In this document: one piece after another, positions 4,394 through 21,259 of the stretch
How positions within the stretch are numbered: the first letter of the stretch is position 1
How the letters are laid out: each line of letters starts with the position of its first letter
IMG/VR virus record: IMGVR_UViG_3300033148_007030
Location: 1-64,000 of that record
Strand: one strand, 5' to 3'
Length of the DNA stretch: 64,000 nt
From: a virus
Program-made: the position numbers and the translations under genes
The notes under the pieces: model-generated
What the model was told of the DNA's origin: nothing
Database searches by the model: none
The model's input: the letters and a program-made list of their open reading frames with translations, nothing else

Positions 4394-4473
4394 CCCTACC
4401 CTACCAAACCCTACCATACCACGCCTCACCTCACCTCACCGCACCATACCTAACCACACCTTACCGTACCCCA
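4394..4473 (-). repeat. Orphan (GGY-NN)16 pentamer array, candidate guide RNA
   Basis: 16 consecutive ccNNr pentamers on + strand, from cccta 4394 to cccca 4473; intergenic. Confidence 0.85.
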
Positions 4474-4515: not shown

Positions 4516-6078
4516 CTATTTTTTACTATAAACGAAATAAATTTGCCTTTCCACATACCGAATATCAAAAATTTCCCACCCTTGTTTTTTACATATATCC
4601 AAATAATTATAATGAAAACAATGATTCGGTCCTGATTTCAATTTACCAGGAATATCAAAATCAATACGTTCTTCGCACCACGAAACAACAATAACTTTCT
4701 TACAAACTCTTACCAATTCTGACATTATCAGCAAAATATGCTGGGGTCGTTGATGAAGAAGCACCTCGGACGCAACTCCTACATCAAACTCATTCTTCTT
4801 ATAAGGGAGTCTGCCTATTTCTACTAAATCCAAATGCACCAACTTAAATTCAAACCCAACTTCAACAGCTTTTGCCTTTGCCTGATCCCCATACAACCTA
4901 GAAATATCACACCCTTCAACATAAGGAATATTTTCATAAGCCTCAAAAGTTCTGCCTATTCCTGGGCCAAAATCAAACACTTTTTTTGCCTTAAATACGT
5001 TCTCCTTAATATAACCAATATGTCTTTTAATTGTATCCTCAGTCATATTTGGGTCGGTAGGATATGAACGACGATTCCAATAATCAAACTCAGAGTATTG
5101 TTCTTCTGTTACCACAACTTCTTTTTTCTTCTCAGGAGGATTATCAATTATCTTGGCAATATCTTTTAATTTATAACGCAAGAGATAATTCTTTGACACA
5201 AAAGATCTATACTCCAAAGAATTGTATTCCTGATCCCCTATCATAGCAACGAAATCATTAATAGTCGTCCATAAATATTTCTCATCATAGATATTTTTTG
5301 CTCCTACAAAATTATGAATCACCGGCTTAATTCCCATACACATCGCTTCCATAATTCCTAAACCTTGGCTTTCCAATGGACTCGTACAAACAATATAGTT
5401 TTTATCTTCCAACCACCCTGCCACATCTTTAATATAATTTCCAAAATGAACCACCTTTTCCAGCTTCATTTCTTTTATCATGTGACTAAGGTAAAGACCA
5501 AATCTAGGATCTTGTATATGTCCACCAATGGACAATCCATATTTTATAAACGGAGAAGTTCTCACTAATTCGTAAAAAGCATGAATAAGTAACATAGGTC
5601 CCTTTTTTGCGGACATATTGCCAAGAAACGCTATATTCTTTCCTGGAGATCGGTTGGAAAATTTATATTTATCAACATCAATTCCATTGGCAATCAAATG
5701 GGTGTTAAAATCTTTAGTAACGGACTTAGGATCTGCTGCAAGTTGTTGAAATACCAAATCTCTAATATGATCAGCAACAAATATAACATCATCAAATTTA
5801 TTCCAATTAATTGCTGAAACATATCCTGAAAGTGCTTCGTAACTATGCACTCTACAAATACTATGCTTGCCTTCAATTATATCTGACTGAGTAATCGCGG
5901 CAGCTAACTCATTGCCCCATTCAACCCAAACAGTGTCAGCCCACCCCATTACCTGTTTTAACTCTTCATTATTCCCAGTAAAACAAGTCTTAACCTCATA
6001 CTTACTTTCAAAAAACTTCACTATATCAACTAAAAATGACTCTAATCCTGGTAAACAAACTACTGCTATTTTTCTCAT
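4516..6078 (-). CDS. GT-B (family 4-like) glycosyltransferase fused to a C-terminal SAM methyltransferase
   Basis: IANGIDVDKY, KKGP, ESQGLGIMEAMCMG; C-terminal VFDFGPGIGR, EVLLHQ. Confidence 0.85.
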   Translation of the reverse strand: MRKIAVVCLPGLESFLVDIVKFFESKYEVKTCFTGNNEELKQVMGWADTVWVEWGNELAAAITQSDIIEGKHSICRVHSYEALSGYVSAINWNKFDDVIFVADHIRDLVFQQLAADPKSVTKDFNTHLIANGIDVDKYKFSNRSPGKNIAFLGNMSAKKGPMLLIHAFYELVRTSPFIKYGLSIGGHIQDPRFGLYLSHMIKEMKLEKVVHFGNYIKDVAGWLEDKNYIVCTSPLESQGLGIMEAMCMGIKPVIHNFVGAKNIYDEKYLWTTINDFVAMIGDQEYNSLEYRSFVSKNYLLRYKLKDIAKIIDNPPEKKKEVVVTEEQYSEFDYWNRRSYPTDPNMTEDTIKRHIGYIKENVFKAKKVFDFGPGIGRTFEAYENIPYVEGCDISRLYGDQAKAKAVEVGFEFKLVHLDLVEIGRLPYKKNEFDVGVASEVLLHQRPQHILLIMSELVRVCKKVIVVSWCEERIDFDIPGKLKSGPNHCFHYNYLDICKKQGWEIFDIRYVERQIYFVYSKK

Positions 6079-16237: not shown

Positions 16238-17098
16238 CTATTGTAGTTTAAAAATCTCTTCCCATTTTTCAAACTTATCGAAAAACGATTCAAATCCATA
16301 CTCCTCAAATACTTCTATAAAACTATCCTCCTTGAACCTTCCAAACCCAAGGCTGTTCACTTCAATTTTCTTTGGGCCTCTATACGGCAAAGCAATCAAT
16401 TGTAAATTTCTATGTATGATTTCCTTACTTTCTTCAGACTCAATTTTATCTTTCTTTTTCCCTGTTAACTCTCCTTTCAAATACTTGCAAGCTCCAAGCA
16501 AACCAACCCCTTCAATCCCTTTGATATTATCACTTGAATCTCCTGCCATTGCTTTAGCCATTGCCCATTGATTTGGCTCAATGCCCCATCCCAGCATAAA
16601 CTCCTTTTTAGTGAAAATCTTCTTTGTTTTTGCATTAAACACCCTAACAAAATGGTGCCTTTCTTCCAACAATAACTGCCATAAATCACCATCACTTGAA
16701 AATATAATATTTTTCCCTGGGCATCTTGCAACCACCTCTGCTATCAAATCATCCGCCTCATACCCATTATGATAAAATATATTTTCAAACCCAAGTTTCG
16801 GAAGCACCTCCTTTCTTAATTTAGTAAATTGATTATACATTATCTGTAATTCACCTAACTCCTCTATTGAATCAGTCTTTCTTCTGTTGGCCTTGTATTC
16901 TGGGTAAATCCAACTCCTATAACGATGTCTGCTATCCCAACAGAAGACAAATTCAGTAGTATCAAATTTCTCTGCCATTTTAAGAATTTGGTTCAGAAAA
17001 CCATAAATAACGCCTGTATACCTATCCTTGTACGATAGATCTCCAAACGCATATGATGCCATATAGCCAATATTGTTTGCGTCAAATATTATTCTCAT
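16238..17098 (-). CDS. 5'-3' exonuclease/flap endonuclease
   Basis: FDANN, YPEYKANR, EADDLIA, SSDGDLWQL, GDSSDNIKGIEGVG. Confidence 0.92.
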   Translation of the reverse strand: MRIIFDANNIGYMASYAFGDLSYKDRYTGVIYGFLNQILKMAEKFDTTEFVFCWDSRHRYRSWIYPEYKANRRKTDSIEELGELQIMYNQFTKLRKEVLPKLGFENIFYHNGYEADDLIAEVVARCPGKNIIFSSDGDLWQLLLEERHHFVRVFNAKTKKIFTKKEFMLGWGIEPNQWAMAKAMAGDSSDNIKGIEGVGLLGACKYLKGELTGKKKDKIESEESKEIIHRNLQLIALPYRGPKKIEVNSLGFGRFKEDSFIEVFEEYGFESFFDKFEKWEEIFKLQ

Positions 17099-17456: not shown

Positions 17457-17620
17457 CCTTGCCATACCGCGCCTTACCAGACCTAACCTTGCCTCACCGA
17501 ACCTCACCTGCCTTGCCTTACTACGCCTTGCCCTACCTGACCGGACCGTGCCGTACCTTGCCTGCCTTGCCTTACCGAACCGGACCAAGCCCTACCACGC
17601 CCCGCCTGCGCAGCCACGCC
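17457..17620 (-). repeat. (GGY-NN)n array B: three units of 8, 10 and 10 pentamers punctuated by GGCA
   Basis: ccNNr pentamers on +; cctg tetramers at 17507, 17561, 17605. Confidence 0.9.
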
Positions 17621-17641
17621 AGTCCGTGAGACTGTATAAAG

Positions 17642-18127
17642 CTATACTATTTCATCCATTGCCGCAAACACCTTTGCAAGAGCAGCCAAAGAACCGTACT
17701 TTCGTCTAAATATATCCATATCCTTTTTAGCCTCATCCAACATCTGCCGGGTCAAATCCTCATCAGATAGAATATCAAGTACTTCTCTATACCCACGAAC
17801 ATCTTCAGCTTTCCTATCTTTAGTAAGAGACATAAATGTTCTTACTTTCTTTTTTGACTTTCCTTCCCCAATAACTATCAATTCCATTCTAATAATCTGT
17901 CTTGCTTGCCATATCCTATGCTGTTCCGCTGCTAAAGTGTTATCCCATTCGAATTTTGAATGTAAAACCGTATCTGGATTACGGGCAAACTCGACAACCT
18001 TTACAGGATCAAGCAACCCTCTATTCTGTTCCTTGACAAATAAAAGTTCCTTAGTAACTGTCATCTCCTCAACAATTGGCTCTTCTGATATTTCCATTGC
18101 CACTGCTACTGTATTATTTGCTTTCAT
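17642..18127 (-). CDS. Protein of unknown function coupled to the Cas7-like gene
   Basis: SD GGAGGAG; overlaps the end of 18114-18764; GLLDPVKVVEFARNPDTVLHSKFEWDNTLAAEQHRIWQARQII. Confidence 0.75.
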   Translation of the reverse strand: MKANNTVAVAMEISEEPIVEEMTVTKELLFVKEQNRGLLDPVKVVEFARNPDTVLHSKFEWDNTLAAEQHRIWQARQIIRMELIVIGEGKSKKKVRTFMSLTKDRKAEDVRGYREVLDILSDEDLTRQMLDEAKKDMDIFRRKYGSLAALAKVFAAMDEIV

Positions 18128-18764
18128 GGATCTCTCCTCCCTTAACCTCAAATAATCCCCATCCCATACCAACGCTTTTCTTACTATCAGGACGGCCTTC
18201 TCCTATACCAACTTGCATTCCTACTCTATATAACAAATTATAAATATCATCAATTGTAAATTGATCAGCATCCCAGCGAATCTTTACCTTTGCCGACCAA
18301 TTATGATACGCAGCTCTCACTGTAACATACGGTTGACCTGTTTCCACCCTTGCCATATCTTCCTGCTTTACTGGTTTCCCATATATACGAATTAATGGAA
18401 TCTGAGGTTCTTTTGCATCCCATCCATCGGGAACCACAAAGATACTTAACTTAGCCAATGTCATCTTAAAGCCTACTAATCGACAGGCAGAAATCATTGC
18501 TGCGCGAATTGATGTTGCGTTAAATCCATCCCAATTTTCTGCTGATATATACCTGGATTGTTGGTAAGACTCATCAGTAGATTTAGGTTCCCGATTTTTC
18601 TTACTAGAAGCGGCCTTACCAGTTTCCATCTTCAATTTCATTTCTGCTTTTGTCTTCGCAGAAAATCTATGGATAACTAACGGCGCTTCCCCAATAACCT
18701 CAAAAATTGCCGTTTGAAACTTTGGTGCTGAAATTGTTACAGTCTTTTTTTGTTCAGTAGCCAT
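18114..18764 (-). CDS. Stand-alone Cas7/RAMP-like RNA-binding protein (candidate Vipr)
   Basis: First strand FEVIGEAPLVIH, helix ATSIRAAMISA, thumb ending in R-A-A-Y-H-N-W-S, C-terminal G-rich loop VGIGEGRPD....GMGWGLFEV. Confidence 0.75.
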   Translation of the reverse strand: MATEQKKTVTISAPKFQTAIFEVIGEAPLVIHRFSAKTKAEMKLKMETGKAASSKKNREPKSTDESYQQSRYISAENWDGFNATSIRAAMISACRLVGFKMTLAKLSIFVVPDGWDAKEPQIPLIRIYGKPVKQEDMARVETGQPYVTVRAAYHNWSAKVKIRWDADQFTIDDIYNLLYRVGMQVGIGEGRPDSKKSVGMGWGLFEVKGGEIHESK

Positions 18765-18866
18765 AATAGCTCCTTTCTTGTGTGTTCTCCAATGGAGATG
18801 TTAAAAATTAATGTTTATTACCGCCTTTTACCAAATTTATTTTTACCGCACCACCTCCTTTTTATT

Positions 18867-19185
18867 CCAAGCCTGCCTTGCCTTACCTGACCTGACCTCA
18901 CCACACCGCGCCATATCACACCTCACCTGCCATGCCAAACCGCGCCCTACCCCGTCATACCTGACCGTACCACACCATGCCTGCCTTACTACACCTCACC
19001 GCGCCTAATCACACCGTGCCGTATCGTACCTGGCCATACCTGCCTTGCCTTACCAAACCCAACCATACCACACCGTACCCCACCTCACCATACCTGCCAA
19101 GCCATATTAAACCATACCTCACCTCATCATACCCCACCTAACCTTACCAAACCATACCATACCTGCTGTACCATACCACACCTCA
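18867..19185 (-). repeat. (GGY-NN)n array A: 4 leading pentamers, then units of 13, 10, 11, 10 and 10 pentamers punctuated by GGCA
   Basis: cctg tetramers on + at 18872, 18926, 18980, 19039, 19093, 19162; starts at the recA stop codon. Confidence 0.92.
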
Positions 19186-20223
19186 AAATCTCTCCTTCTT
19201 CCTCCTTTCAGTTTTAAACTTATCTTCAATTTCGTGCCAAAGATCAATCACTTTCTCCCGTAACTCCTTCTGTAATCCGTTCCTCTCAATAACCCTAACC
19301 ATTTTATCCATAGAAACAAACTCACCTAAATCTGAATCACCATACTTAGTTGCTCCTGTCATGTTTTTCAAGTACTGTAAATTTCCACGGATATCATCAA
19401 TTCCATAAGAAAAAAGAATAAAGATAAGAGCTTCTCGAAATGGATCATCTACAGAACTTTTCCTGATCTGACATAATGATTGAATTCCTACAACCTTCTT
19501 CACTTCTTTTTTACCAATTTTAGTAGTTCTTTCAACTTTGGCTTTCTGGCCAACTCGAATCCTCAAAGAAGCATAAAACGGAATCCCTTTTCCTCCTGGA
19601 GTCACTTCTCCCATATCACCTTGCCGGACTTGATTAGTACAAACAATAAGCCAATTGTTGTTTCTGATAATTCTGGAGGTTTTTCTCAATCCCTCACTGA
19701 ACTCCTTTGCTCTCCTCATTCCCATCTTGTCCTTTCCTTCCATCTCCATATTAGTAGAAAGAGCTGCTAAAGAATCAGTTCCTATCCCATTAATAACATC
19801 CTTCCTTGGCGGATTCCAAGCATATATGTGATCATCAAAAACTTCAGTAACAGTATCAGGTCTGTAGTAATTTTTCTTGTCTATCTCAACCCCATAAATA
19901 CGAGCATACTCTTGATCCAAACGAGCTTCTGGATCAAGAAACTTTACTTCTCCACCATTTGCTTGAATGGATGCACAAATCTCAGCCAATATGGAGGTCT
20001 TCCCAGCACTTGACGGACCAAATATTTCTACTATAATTCCACCAGGAAGACCCCCTTCCCTCTTTCTACCCCCGGATATTTCAAGGTCAAGTACAGTAGA
20101 TCCAGTAGAAACCGTTTGCTCTAACCTAACAGTTTTCACCTTTTCTATCGGAGAATCCGTGACCTTTTGTATCTGTCTTGCCAACTGCTTTGTGCTTTTC
20201 GTTCGCCTTAATAACGTGGCCAT
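19183..20223 (-). CDS. recA: RecA/UvsX-like recombinase
   Basis: VSTGSTVLD, EIFGPSSAGKT, DSLAAL, NQVR, TPGGKGIPFYASLRI. Confidence 0.92.
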   Translation of the reverse strand: MATLLRRTKSTKQLARQIQKVTDSPIEKVKTVRLEQTVSTGSTVLDLEISGGRKREGGLPGGIIVEIFGPSSAGKTSILAEICASIQANGGEVKFLDPEARLDQEYARIYGVEIDKKNYYRPDTVTEVFDDHIYAWNPPRKDVINGIGTDSLAALSTNMEMEGKDKMGMRRAKEFSEGLRKTSRIIRNNNWLIVCTNQVRQGDMGEVTPGGKGIPFYASLRIRVGQKAKVERTTKIGKKEVKKVVGIQSLCQIRKSSVDDPFREALIFILFSYGIDDIRGNLQYLKNMTGATKYGDSDLGEFVSMDKMVRVIERNGLQKELREKVIDLWHEIEDKFKTERRKKERF

Positions 20224-20233
20224 TATTTAACTC

Positions 20234-21259
20234 CTAAAAAGGAATATCATCATCAAGCTTTTCAAGTTCATCCGACTTTTTGGCGCAATCATCCCATAAC
20301 TTACAATCATCGCAATGATCTAATGTGTCCAAATCAACCCCAAATTCTCCCCCACCTGGGCACTTAGATCCCCCTTCCTTTTTCTCTTTCTTTTCTTTTT
20401 CCAATTTACGCTGCTTTCTTTTTGCTTCTATAGTTGCTTTTCTTGAAGACAATTTAGGTTTAACAGGTTTCTCTTCCCCCTCTTCTTCCTCTTCTTCTAC
20501 TTCCCCAGCCTCTTCACTTTCCTCTTCCTCTTCCTTAGATCCCCAAAAAGCGTTTTTCACCTCGTCATAAGTGGGTTTATGAATAAGTTCATCCAAACAC
20601 TGAACCTCATCCAAACTTTCATCAGTTATTTTATAATCCCTATCCACAAACTTATGACCTACATATTCAGTATTGGTTGGACCAGTTCCTTGTCTCTCAA
20701 AAGAAATAGCCTTTCCATCATCAGGATCAGCAAATAAAACAAAACCCCCACCTTTCGGCTTTTTTGCCAAAGGAGTTAAAAGTCTTTCCATCAAATGATG
20801 AGAAGCATCCCAAACCTGAACCCCTTTTGCCTCTTCTTTGTCATTATCATAACAAAGTATATTGTAGATAGATCTTCGTTTTGGATTTAATTGCTTTGCC
20901 GCATCATCCTCCCCATTATCTTTTAACCTTTTTTGCTCCTCACAAATTGGGCAAGACTTATTAAACATTCTTGCCAAACAAATGTAAGCGTCTTCATTTA
21001 CTCCAACTCGATAATGCACCCATGCTTCCAATGTATATGCCGGTTCCCCTGCAGAAGCTTGAGGATTATTGTCCCCTGCAATGTAAGGCAGAATGTCAAT
21101 TAGATGCTCTCCAGCAACGCATTTAAAATAAGTTACATCTTTGACATCATCCCTAAAAATAGTTTTAAATCTACCACTGTCCCCTCTTCGTTCATGACTC
21201 TCTTTGGTTCTTTTCAAAAGAGCTTCCTTCATTGCTTTTCTATCTCTCTTCATCGTCAT
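20234..21259 (-). CDS. Single-stranded DNA-binding protein (gp32-like)
   Basis: H..C...CPIC zinc site, acidic tail ending DDDIPF, next to recA. Confidence 0.75.
   Translation of the reverse strand: MTMKRDRKAMKEALLKRTKESHERRGDSGRFKTIFRDDVKDVTYFKCVAGEHLIDILPYIAGDNNPQASAGEPAYTLEAWVHYRVGVNEDAYICLARMFNKSCPICEEQKRLKDNGEDDAAKQLNPKRRSIYNILCYDNDKEEAKGVQVWDASHHLMERLLTPLAKKPKGGGFVLFADPDDGKAISFERQGTGPTNTEYVGHKFVDRDYKITDESLDEVQCLDELIHKPTYDEVKNAFWGSKEEEEESEEAGEVEEEEEEGEEKPVKPKLSSRKATIEAKRKQRKLEKEKKEKKEGGSKCPGGGEFGVDLDTLDHCDDCKLWDDCAKKSDELEKLDDDIPF

What the first reader, a model, noticed from the sequence alone, without database searches (positions are those of the whole stretch)
17457..19161. Decoded NN strings read like codon positions 1-2, suggesting wobble-skipping targets
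Seen (5'->3', minus strand): A1 AT AT TT AA TA GG AT GA GA AT TT AT TT; A2 AT GA GG AC GT AT TG TT AA AA; A3 AT CA AC AC AC GT TA GC GA GT AA; A4 AT GT AC CA AT GG AG GC TT AT; A5 GA GT AT GC GT GA CA CA AA AA; B1 GG GT AG TT CC TC AA AA; B2 AA AC AC CC CA AG AA GT AA AA; B3 GA TC GA AA TA CT AA GC AT AA. Including the orphan array, 76 of 98 start with a purine (hand count) and CG never occurs. Inference: read as NNx codons, A2 allows M-E-G-T-V-I-W-F-N (cf. cold-shock-domain GTVKWFN) and the orphan allows G-T-K-V-Y-I-A-E-E-E-V-I-R-L-R-R (excisionase/HTH-like). Skipping every third base would make targeting insensitive to synonymous escape. These readings are cherry-picked from degenerate options and may be chance. 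I saw no self-target by eye.
Basis: inference. Interest (0 to 1): 0.75.

Follow-up and report, generated by a model that had tools for sequence, protein, structure and literature searches.

The report
Phage VIPR guide arrays with natural targets
The five-base repeats are guide RNAs of a phage VIPR system, a CRISPR-like DNA silencer first published in 2026.

Summary
All nine NN strings, the 76/98 purine-first count and the absence of CG are exact.

Those papers already state that the skipped base falls on the codon wobble position and blocks synonymous escape.

The locus is a complete VIPR system:
- a 216-aa stand-alone RAMP protein, whose only significant PDB sequence match is SUSP1 Vipr and whose fold is Cas7-like;
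- a small winged-helix-like accessory gene;
- two "staggered" GGY-NN arrays plus one orphan array, all on the coding strand.

New here are candidate natural targets, all in frame with NN on codon positions 1-2:
- Guide A1 matches 20/20 a RecA/UvsX-like gene in three sister-phage contigs. All ten wobble bases differ among them. The phage's own recA, directly upstream of the array, matches only 17/20, through two amino-acid changes.
- Guide A5 matches 20/20 a PDC-S27-type candidate defence gene on a provirus and on a second IMG/VR viral contig that also encodes three serine recombinases.
- Guide A2 matches 19/20 the first ten codons of cold-shock genes, never 20/20.

A3, A4 and the orphan gave no target, and B1-B3 were not scanned. 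This scan has already noted VIPR arrays in at least 25 other genomes. It is a new member of a known kind.

The parts
18872..19185 (-). vrRNA array A (staggered). Short leader block 19166-19180. A1 19097-19161 (functional part probably units 1-10, 19112-19161; unit 11 is degenerate TTTAA). A2 19043-19092. A3 18984-19038. A4 18930-18979. A5 18876-18925. The blocks are separated by 4-nt CAGG units at 19162-19165, 19093-19096, 19039-19042, 18980-18983, 18926-18929 and 18872-18875.
   Evidence: Parse; sequence. The array begins at the stop codon of the recA-like gene. A1, A2 and A5 have NNx matches in public sequences.
18114..18764 (-). vipr: 216-aa stand-alone RAMP (Cas7-like) protein, phrog_4652, with G-loop GIGEGRP
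   Evidence: The only significant PDB sequence match is SUSP1 Vipr 36pp_D (E=0.022 for the single sequence; E=5.5e-6 for the profile). AF2 pLDDT is 94.2. Foldseek top hits are Cmr4/Csm3/Cas7-11/type VII Cas7, E 1e-5 to 5e-4. There are 2216 50%-identity clusters with E<=1e-3.
17642..18127 (-). vap-like accessory gene: 161 aa, phrog_15946, winged-helix-like core (about residues 19-121) plus a long C-terminal helix. It overlaps the end of vipr by 14 nt.
   Evidence: PHROG hit. A homolog with the same FEWD..AAEQHR.WQARQIIR motif follows vipr in Cy-LDV1. AF2 pLDDT is 83.9. VIA-align hits are almost all winged-helix DNA binders but weak, Z about 5. Foldseek gave nothing significant.
17457..17623 (-). 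vrRNA array B (staggered). Leader block 17609-17623. B1 17565-17604. B2 17511-17560. B3 17457-17506. CAGG units at 17605-17608, 17561-17564 and 17507-17510.
   Evidence: Parse. No targets were found in the loci held.
4394..4473 (-). Orphan vrRNA of 16 GGY-NN units without CAGG punctuation, about 13.6 kb from vipr, just upstream of a nucleotide-sugar epimerase-like gene (the other neighbour is unannotated)
   Evidence: The two 9-unit halves gave 2+2 IMG/VR hits, as expected by chance, and the rest of the guide matched at chance level. The downstream neighbour 3429-4358 hits phrog_540; the upstream neighbour 4516-6078 has no PHROG family.
19183..20223 (-). The phage's own RecA/UvsX-like recombinase gene, directly upstream of array A. 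Its site 19390-19419 (ILFSYGIDDI) is the homolog of the A1 target and matches A1 at 17/20.
   Evidence: Pfam RecA 4.5e-36. Alignment with the three targeted homologs. Own-site comparison.

Best explanation
This is a phage-borne VIPR (Viral Interference Programmable Repeat) system. Arrays A and B and the orphan array are read on the gene strand, and by inference are transcribed with the flanking genes. The staggered transcript is probably cut at the GGCA/CAGG junctions into vrRNAs of about 10 units (inferred). By analogy with SUSP1 VIPR, one Vipr protomer binds each GGY and presents the following NN. The filament then pairs with double-stranded DNA, skipping every third target base, so a 10-unit guide reads positions 1-2 of ten consecutive codons. 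Binding should silence transcription, because the accessory protein looks like a DNA binder and not a nuclease. The guides are sense-oriented, so they would pair with the template DNA strand and cannot pair with the mRNA. Shown here are the anatomy, the homology and fold of Vipr, the hypervariable NN in relatives, and in-frame NNx matches. A1 matches the recombinase gene of sister phages, while the phage's own copy differs by two amino-acid changes. A5 matches a PDC-S27-type candidate defence gene on a provirus and on another viral contig. A2 matches the 5' end of cold-shock genes with one mismatch. Inferred and not shown are expression, processing, RNP formation, silencing, and which of these matches matter in nature.
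For: Literature: VIPR comprises Vipr, vap and vrRNAs of 9-16 YNNGG repeats. The 1-nt skip rule was proven in vitro and in vivo, the skip base falls on wobble, staggered arrays have a 1-nt overlap, and targets are competing mobile elements. Vipr membership. Arrays. The same gene order and GGCAGG junction occur in Cy-LDV1, and arrays with the same junction flank vipr in 13 of the 14 IMG/VR relatives, with entirely different NN. NN composition best fits sense codon positions 1-2. A1 units 1-10 have 3 exact IMG/VR hits, all at I[IM]FNYGIDDI of RecA-like genes 31-49% identical to the phage's own. These lie in gp32-recA-nuclease-SbcCD-type modules without a VIPR locus directly after recA. All 10 wobble columns vary, and the own site matches 17/20. 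A5 has 2 exact hits inside the DUF234 domain of ATPase_2+DUF234 proteins that match PADLOC PDC-S27 at about 2-3e-58. One record is classed as a provirus, and 4 wobble sites differ. About 0.13-0.16 chance hits are expected per 20-base pattern, calibrated by the 2 hits seen per 18-base pattern. A2 matches 58 of 63 sites in metagenomes and IMG/VR and 19 of 24 in GTDB genomes at cold-shock genes at 19/20.
Against: There is no expression or processing data. No sequencing run was listed, and no Rfam family, promoter or terminator signal rose above background. A3 and A4 gave no exact hit, and the orphan array gave only chance hits. B1-B3 were not searched in the public collections. Shuffled-guide and skip-0/2/3 patterns could not be run against those collections, so the evidence for skip-1 is not an unbiased comparison here. 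Three of the four chance hits of the orphan halves were also in frame, so composition alone biases matches towards the wobble phase. A2 never matches 20/20. The G-loop Trp that stacks on G2 in SUSP1 Vipr is an invariant Gly in this clade. The host is unknown.
Confidence: 0.88

Rival explanations
1. The codon-like readings and database matches are chance or cherry-picking. The arrays may be VIPR guides, but their true targets are none of those found.
For: The databases are huge, so a 19-base pattern should hit the metagenome set by chance alone (my rough estimate, a handful to about ten sites). A5's two hits are one evolutionary event, with about 0.15 expected by chance. Chance hits are biased to the coding frame.
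Against: All three A1 hits fall at the same site of a homolog of the gene that directly adjoins the array, in related phages, with every wobble base varying. RecA-like genes are a tiny share of viral DNA, so this is very unlikely by chance. The csp hits comprise 47 distinct sequences, 45 of them aligned from the ATG.
Confidence: 0.06
2. A1 chiefly regulates the phage's own recA-like gene, by partial binding at the 17/20 site with six contiguous perfect 3' units, and is not mainly a weapon against sister phages.
For: The own site is 85% NN-identical, above the papers' 80% target threshold. R-loop formation starts at the 3' units, and units 5-10 match the own gene perfectly. The guide lies 22 nt after the recA stop codon.
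Against: Perfect 20/20 matches exist in other phages, whereas the own gene carries two non-synonymous differences exactly at guide-read positions. Published systems show lower self-match than non-self match as an autoimmunity-avoidance pattern.
Confidence: 0.1
3. The repeats are structural nucleic-acid elements without guide function, such as two-tier G-quadruplexes, iterons, or an RNA sponge for a ring protein.
For: The GG-N3 periodicity could form weak G-quadruplexes. This was my initial reading.
Against: A Vipr homolog is encoded between the arrays. NN is hypervariable among relatives while GG is fixed. The NNx matches to coding genes are unexplained by a structural role.
Confidence: 0.02

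Closest known systems
VIPR systems with staggered vrRNA arrays (bioRxiv 10.64898/2026.04.26.720920, fig. S18 legend; the type number cannot be assigned from the text held)
   Same: A stand-alone Vipr RAMP, an adjacent small accessory gene, GGY-NN pentamer arrays flanking vipr on the same strand, successive guides offset by one base (GGCA|GG), a phage host genome, and targets in other mobile elements read with a 1-nt skip on the wobble position.
   Different: The type (I-VII) and vap class (vap1-6) could not be determined, because the figures and data files are not held. The guides here include one against the recombinase gene of sister phages, next to a recoded own allele. The three papers read do not describe that target class.
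Type II VIPR of Escherichia phage SUSP1 (PDB 36pp; bioRxiv 10.64898/2026.04.26.720927 and 10.64898/2026.10.15.759431)
   Same: A homologous Vipr. The profile E is 5.5e-6 over the thumb-to-G-loop region, with R138 aligned to R150, D177 to E189 and R179 to R191. It shares the GGY-NN grammar, guide length of about 10-13 units, solo/orphan vrRNAs elsewhere in the genome, and self-match lower than non-self match.
   Different: There is no invariant 3' tail or pseudoknot after each guide, and the guides abut through a 4-nt junction. The G-loop Trp178 is Gly in this clade. Overall sequence identity is very low. The targets are not a satellite integrase.
Class 1 CRISPR Cas7 backbone filaments (Csm3/Cmr4, Cas7-11, type VII Cas7)
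   Same: An RRM/RAMP fold with a G-loop and thumb (Foldseek E about 1e-5 to 5e-4, TM about 0.4-0.5). One protomer binds per repeat unit of guide, with periodic base flipping.
   Different: There is no CRISPR repeat-spacer array, and no other cas genes were seen nearby. The periodicity is 5 nt, of which only 2 pair. The guide is gapped and the target is skipped every third base.
Homing-endonuclease marker exclusion in T-even phages (from my own knowledge, not tested)
   Same: A weapon against the homologous gene of co-infecting relatives sits beside a resistant own allele.
   Different: Here the weapon is an RNA guide with a presumably non-cleaving silencer, and no gene conversion is implied.

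Membership tests
VIPR system | Stand-alone RAMP protein (Vipr) homologous to an experimentally validated Vipr | tested here: met
   SUSP1 Vipr 36pp_D is the top PDB sequence hit (E=0.022 single sequence) and the only significant profile hit (E=5.5e-6). The high-confidence model (pLDDT 94.2) has a Cas7/RAMP fold.
VIPR system | GGY-contacting residues of the thumb and G-loop (SUSP1 R138, D177, W178, R179) | tested here: inconclusive
   In the alignment, R150 (nearly invariant) aligns with R138, E189 with D177, and invariant R191 with R179, but invariant G190 replaces W178. A conserved GWG follows in a C-terminal extension. No complex was modelled.
VIPR system | vrRNA genes: tandem YNNGG/GGYNN repeats of about 9-16 units next to vipr on the same strand | tested here: met
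   There are eight blocks of 8-13 units flanking vipr-vap and one 16-unit orphan. None occurs elsewhere in the 98 kb.
VIPR system | Conserved GG(Y) with hypervariable NN among related loci | tested here: met
   In 13 of the 14 IMG/VR relatives and in Cy-LDV1 the arrays sit beside vipr with the same GGCAGG junctions but unrelated NN strings. The third base is often A or C in relatives.
VIPR system | Adjacent vipr-accessory (vap) gene | tested here: inconclusive
   A conserved 161-aa partner gene follows vipr here and in Cy-LDV1. It looks winged-helix-like only at Z about 5. The sequences of vap1-6 are not held, so identity with a named vap could not be tested.
VIPR system | Targets read by the 1-nt skip rule, with skip bases on codon wobble positions | tested here: met
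   A1 (3 loci) and A5 (2 loci) match 20/20, and A2 matches 19/20 (47 distinct csp sequences). All are in frame with NN on codon positions 1-2, and the wobble bases vary. Caveat: other skip rules and shuffled guides were not searched in the public collections.
VIPR system | vrRNAs expressed, processed and bound by Vipr; guide-dependent silencing | not testable with these tools
   No sequencing run was listed. This needs small-RNA sequencing, pull-down and reporter assays.
Type II VIPR (SUSP1 / P. fulva clade) | Each vrRNA ends in an invariant structured 3' tail (pseudoknot) | tested here: not met
   The guides abut through a 4-nt CAGG unit with no intervening tail. Rfam and the terminator scan found nothing. 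It is therefore filed as a staggered-array VIPR, not type II.
CRISPR-Cas (class 1) | Repeat-spacer array with contiguous spacers plus multi-subunit cas operon | tested here: not met
   No repeat of CRISPR size or spacing turned up in the tandem-repeat scan. The neighbours are RecA, gp32 and FEN genes. PADLOC gave no hit for either locus protein.

The most novel reading that the evidence does not exclude
Guide A1 and the recoded recA-like allele 22 nt upstream of it form a linked weapon-and-antidote cassette. The phage silences the recombinase of co-infecting sister phages through a protein-motif-level, wobble-blind guide, and is itself protected only by two amino-acid substitutions at guide-read positions. 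The same array would then also carry counter-defence guides (PDC-S27) and possibly host-directed guides (csp). That would extend VIPR from anti-satellite and anti-prophage use to core-gene exclusion among relatives and to silencing of host immunity.
Probability: 0.35. Interest if true: 0.6.

Novelty: new member of a known kind. Interest (0 to 1): 0.4.

Why it matters
It independently confirms, in an uncultured phage of a distant Vipr clade with staggered arrays, that the gapped NNx code finds real coding targets whose wobble bases have drifted completely. It also gives three concrete, testable guide-target pairs. The sister-phage recombinase target with a recoded own allele beside the guide suggests a simple reporter experiment on how many non-synonymous mismatches separate self from non-self. 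The match to a PDC-S27-type gene points to RNA-guided counter-defence. None of this changes the known mechanism.

Tried and rejected
- My first reading (a ring-protein or G-quadruplex repeat, or an origin) was dropped once the VIPR papers and the Vipr homology were found.
- Self-target scan of the whole 98-kb record at skip 0, 1 and 2: nothing above shuffles.
- Cross-targeting between 63 guides of relatives, the nine own guides and all loci held: nothing above shuffles.
- A3 exact: no hit in IMG/VR or in metagenomes. A4 exact: no hit in IMG/VR.
- Orphan halves: chance-level hits only.
- Other guides scanned against the full target records G001 and G005: nothing. B2 at 17/20 in frame in G001 is borderline.
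- Extending A2 by the shared junction unit AG: only 3 of 47 csp sites fit.
- 'Guides start at ATG' as a general rule: AT is the first unit in 7 of 55 relatives' guides against 8% overall, which is not significant.
- Host identification: the DNA polymerase and RecA have no isolate relative above 36% identity. The csp class is spread from DPANN archaea to Erysipelotrichaceae and Acidobacteriota.
- Sequencing runs: none was listed, and no RNA holder was listed.
- vap: nothing significant by Pfam, PDB sequence search or Foldseek.
Full report
**What is there**

The window is part of a 98-kb IMG/VR virus record (84% complete by CheckV). All of its genes lie on the minus strand. The region of interest sits in a replication and recombination module. 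It contains a gp32-like SSB (20234-21259), a RecA/UvsX-like recombinase (19183-20223) and a 5'-3' exonuclease (16238-17098).

Between these genes, on the coding strand, lie two arrays of 5-nt units YNNGG (= GGY-NN). They flank a 216-aa gene and a 161-aa gene. A third array of 16 units lies at 4394-4473. A 4-nt CAGG unit shifts the phase by one base every 8-13 units. Nothing similar exists elsewhere in the 98 kb.

**Observation check**

The counts are also exact: 98 units, 76 begin with a purine, and CG never occurs.

CG avoidance is not a rule of the system. CG is only 1.2% of codon positions 1-2 in this phage. It appears 34 times among 609 units in the arrays of GC-richer relatives.

**Identity of the system**

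A note from the same scan used the word "VIPR-like". That led me to three 2026 preprints. They describe Viral Interference Programmable Repeat systems with these features:
- a stand-alone RAMP protein (Vipr), an accessory gene (vap) and vrRNAs of 9-16 YNNGG repeats;
- NN dinucleotides that pair with DNA while one target base is skipped per unit;
- skip bases that "overwhelmingly" align to the wobble position, which the authors explicitly interpret as defeating synonymous escape;
- array types that include "staggered" arrays, whose vrRNAs overlap by one nucleotide;
- targets that are satellites, prophages and rival phages' VIPR loci;
- solo (orphan) vrRNAs.

The 216-aa protein fits this description. 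Its best PDB sequence match is SUSP1 Vipr (E=0.022). A profile of 78 diverse homologs finds that chain as the only significant hit (E=5.5e-6). The match aligns the thumb arginine and the G-loop. The AlphaFold model is confident (pLDDT 94.2). Its best structural matches are Cas7-family RAMPs: Cmr4, Csm3, Cas7-11 and type VII Cas7.

The family is large. It has 6778 near relatives in metagenomes and 2216 clusters at 50% identity. phrog_4652 members occur in mycobacteriophages, Gordonia phages and Cy-LDV1.

Cy-LDV1 shows vipr, array, partner gene, array, with the same GGCAGG junction. Of the fourteen IMG/VR relatives, thirteen carry arrays beside vipr, all on its strand, with unrelated NN strings.

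The partner protein (phrog_15946) is conserved. It models as a winged-helix-like core plus a long helix, but the matches are weak at Z about 5.

There is no structured tail between guides, so this is not the SUSP1-type (type II) architecture. It fits the description of staggered arrays in the fig. S18 legend.

**Testing the wobble-skipping reading at this locus: composition**

The NN dinucleotides fit the phage's own sense codon positions 1-2 best. For the 82 core units the log-likelihood is -310.6 bits. The alternatives are:

| Model | Log-likelihood (bits) |
|---|---|
| Sense codon positions 1-2 | -310.6 |
| All minus-strand dinucleotides | -321.5 |
| Uniform | -328 |
| Codon positions 2-3, or antisense 1-2 | -333 |
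| Codon positions 3-1 | -340 |
| Remaining antisense phases | -347 to -354 |

. The guides therefore look like sense-strand codon stems. Such guides cannot pair with the mRNA, only with the template DNA strand.

**Testing the wobble-skipping reading: pattern scans**

*A1.* Units 1-10 give three exact IMG/VR hits. All three lie in frame at I[IM]FNYGIDDI of RecA-like genes. Those genes are 49%, 48% and 31% identical to the phage's own RecA. They sit in similar gp32-recA-nuclease-SbcCD-type modules that lack a VIPR locus directly after recA. The 20 NN bases are identical in the three, while all ten wobble columns vary. Units 11-13 of A1 match 0/6, and unit 11 is a degenerate TTTAA. The working guide is therefore probably ten units, like its neighbours.

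The phage's own gene ends 22 nt before A1. It reads ILFSYGIDDI at the same site and matches 17/20. The differences are CT for AT and TC for AA, both non-synonymous.

*A5.* This guide gives two exact hits. Both lie in frame inside the DUF234 domain of ATPase_2+DUF234 proteins. Those proteins match the PADLOC candidate defence family PDC-S27 at about 2-3e-58. One hit is on a complete provirus. The other is on a contig with three serine recombinases. Four wobble positions differ. The phage has no homolog of this gene and no csp gene.

*A2.* I relaxed one base at unit 6. IMG/VR then gave 2 sites, metagenomes 61 and GTDB genomes 24. Across the three scans, 77 of the 87 sites lie in cold-shock genes, giving 47 distinct 36-nt csp sequences. 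Forty-five of these start at their ATG (MEGTVKWFN[NK] or MDGTVKWFN[NK]). Every one has AA (Lys) where the guide has AT, so A2 matches 19/20 and never 20/20.

*Guides without targets.* A3, A4 and both halves of the orphan gave nothing beyond chance.

**How strong is this**

The two 18-base patterns each returned 2 IMG/VR hits. That calibrates a 20-base pattern at roughly 0.13-0.16 chance hits, perhaps up to about 1 for the AT-rich A1.

The A1 result is decisive in my view. The hits fall at one site, in one gene family that is the homolog of the gene touching the array, in related phages, in frame, with the wobble fully randomised.

A5 is one evolutionary event with about 0.15 expected by chance. 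It is strengthened by frame, conservation across two diverged homologs and a plausible target class. I rate it at about 0.6.

I rate a true csp-type target at about 0.5.

Two cautions apply:
- Three of the four chance hits of the orphan halves were also in frame. Codon-like composition alone therefore pushes matches towards the wobble phase.
Within the target loci, only skip 1 gives more than chance, but those loci were found with skip 1.

**Mechanism, with what is shown and what is inferred**

Shown here:
- the locus anatomy;
- Vipr homology and fold;
- hypervariable NN among relatives;
- gapped in-frame matches.

From the literature on SUSP1 and P. fulva VIPR:
- one Vipr protomer binds per unit;
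- GGY is sequestered and NN is presented;
- a 1-nt-skip R-loop triplex forms, starting at the 3' units;
- the outcome is transcriptional silencing.

Inferred for this locus:
- the arrays are transcribed with the module and processed at the GGCA|GG junctions;
- rival recA, a prophage-borne defence candidate and perhaps a csp gene are silenced;
- the phage is protected from A1 by its two recoded codons.

Because units 5-10 of A1 match the own gene perfectly, and pairing begins at the 3' end, partial self-binding or autoregulation cannot be excluded.

**Comparison and novelty**

This scan has noted VIPR arrays in at least 25 other genomes. Some of those notes describe cases where a guide spells the rival allele of a neighbouring gene. 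I reached the recA result before reading those notes.

The locus is a new member of a known kind, in a clade far from SUSP1. Three details are worth recording:
- the G-loop Trp is replaced by Gly;
- the guides are staggered and have no tails;
- there is a guide against the sister-phage recombinase beside a recoded own allele. The three papers I read do not describe that target class.

Noticed in passing
L005, L007 and other relatives (for example L005:3739-3940, L007:3798-3852 and 5195-5258): In close Vipr relatives (73-86% identity) the third repeat base is often A or C rather than Y (GGA-NN units). In SUSP1 the pocket for that base is said to exclude purines, so this clade may have a relaxed or different third-base pocket.
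   Followed up: partly
window 18930-19161: Four of the five array-A guides begin with AT. For A2 this AT aligns with the ATG of csp genes, which suggests guides aimed at gene starts. In relatives AT is first in only 7 of 55 guides, so this is not a general rule.
   Followed up: partly
window 17507-17520, 17561-17574, 18872-18885, 19039-19052: The junction TAAGGCAAGGCAGG recurs exactly four times, so four guides end in AA AA. In the A2 and A5 matches these AA AA units also pair with the target (AAx AAx). It is untested whether this reflects array duplication history or a preference for Lys/Asn-Lys/Asn at the 3' end of targets.
   Followed up: no
window 19166-19185 and 17609-17623: Short 3-4-unit leader blocks (GA GT AT AC, then CAGG; CT GT TG, then CAGG) precede A1 and B1. 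The first overlaps the recA stop codon. They are too short to be guides and are possibly remnants or processing leaders.
   Followed up: no
L108 (G001), minus-strand offset 1229: Guide B2 matches 17/20 in frame (NTILQSYVKN) in the same sister-phage contig that carries the A1 target. Shuffled guides reach at most 16, so this is borderline and could be a second target or chance.
   Followed up: partly
L111:1810-6811: The contig carrying the A5 target encodes three consecutive large serine recombinases next to the PDC-S27-like gene. The layout is typical of integrative elements of Firmicutes and is a weak hint about the host group.
   Followed up: no
window 18114-18764 (residues 189-205): This Vipr clade has invariant Gly where SUSP1 Vipr has the G2-stacking Trp178. 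It has a conserved C-terminal S..S.G.GWG.F extension that might supply the aromatic residue instead.
   Followed up: no
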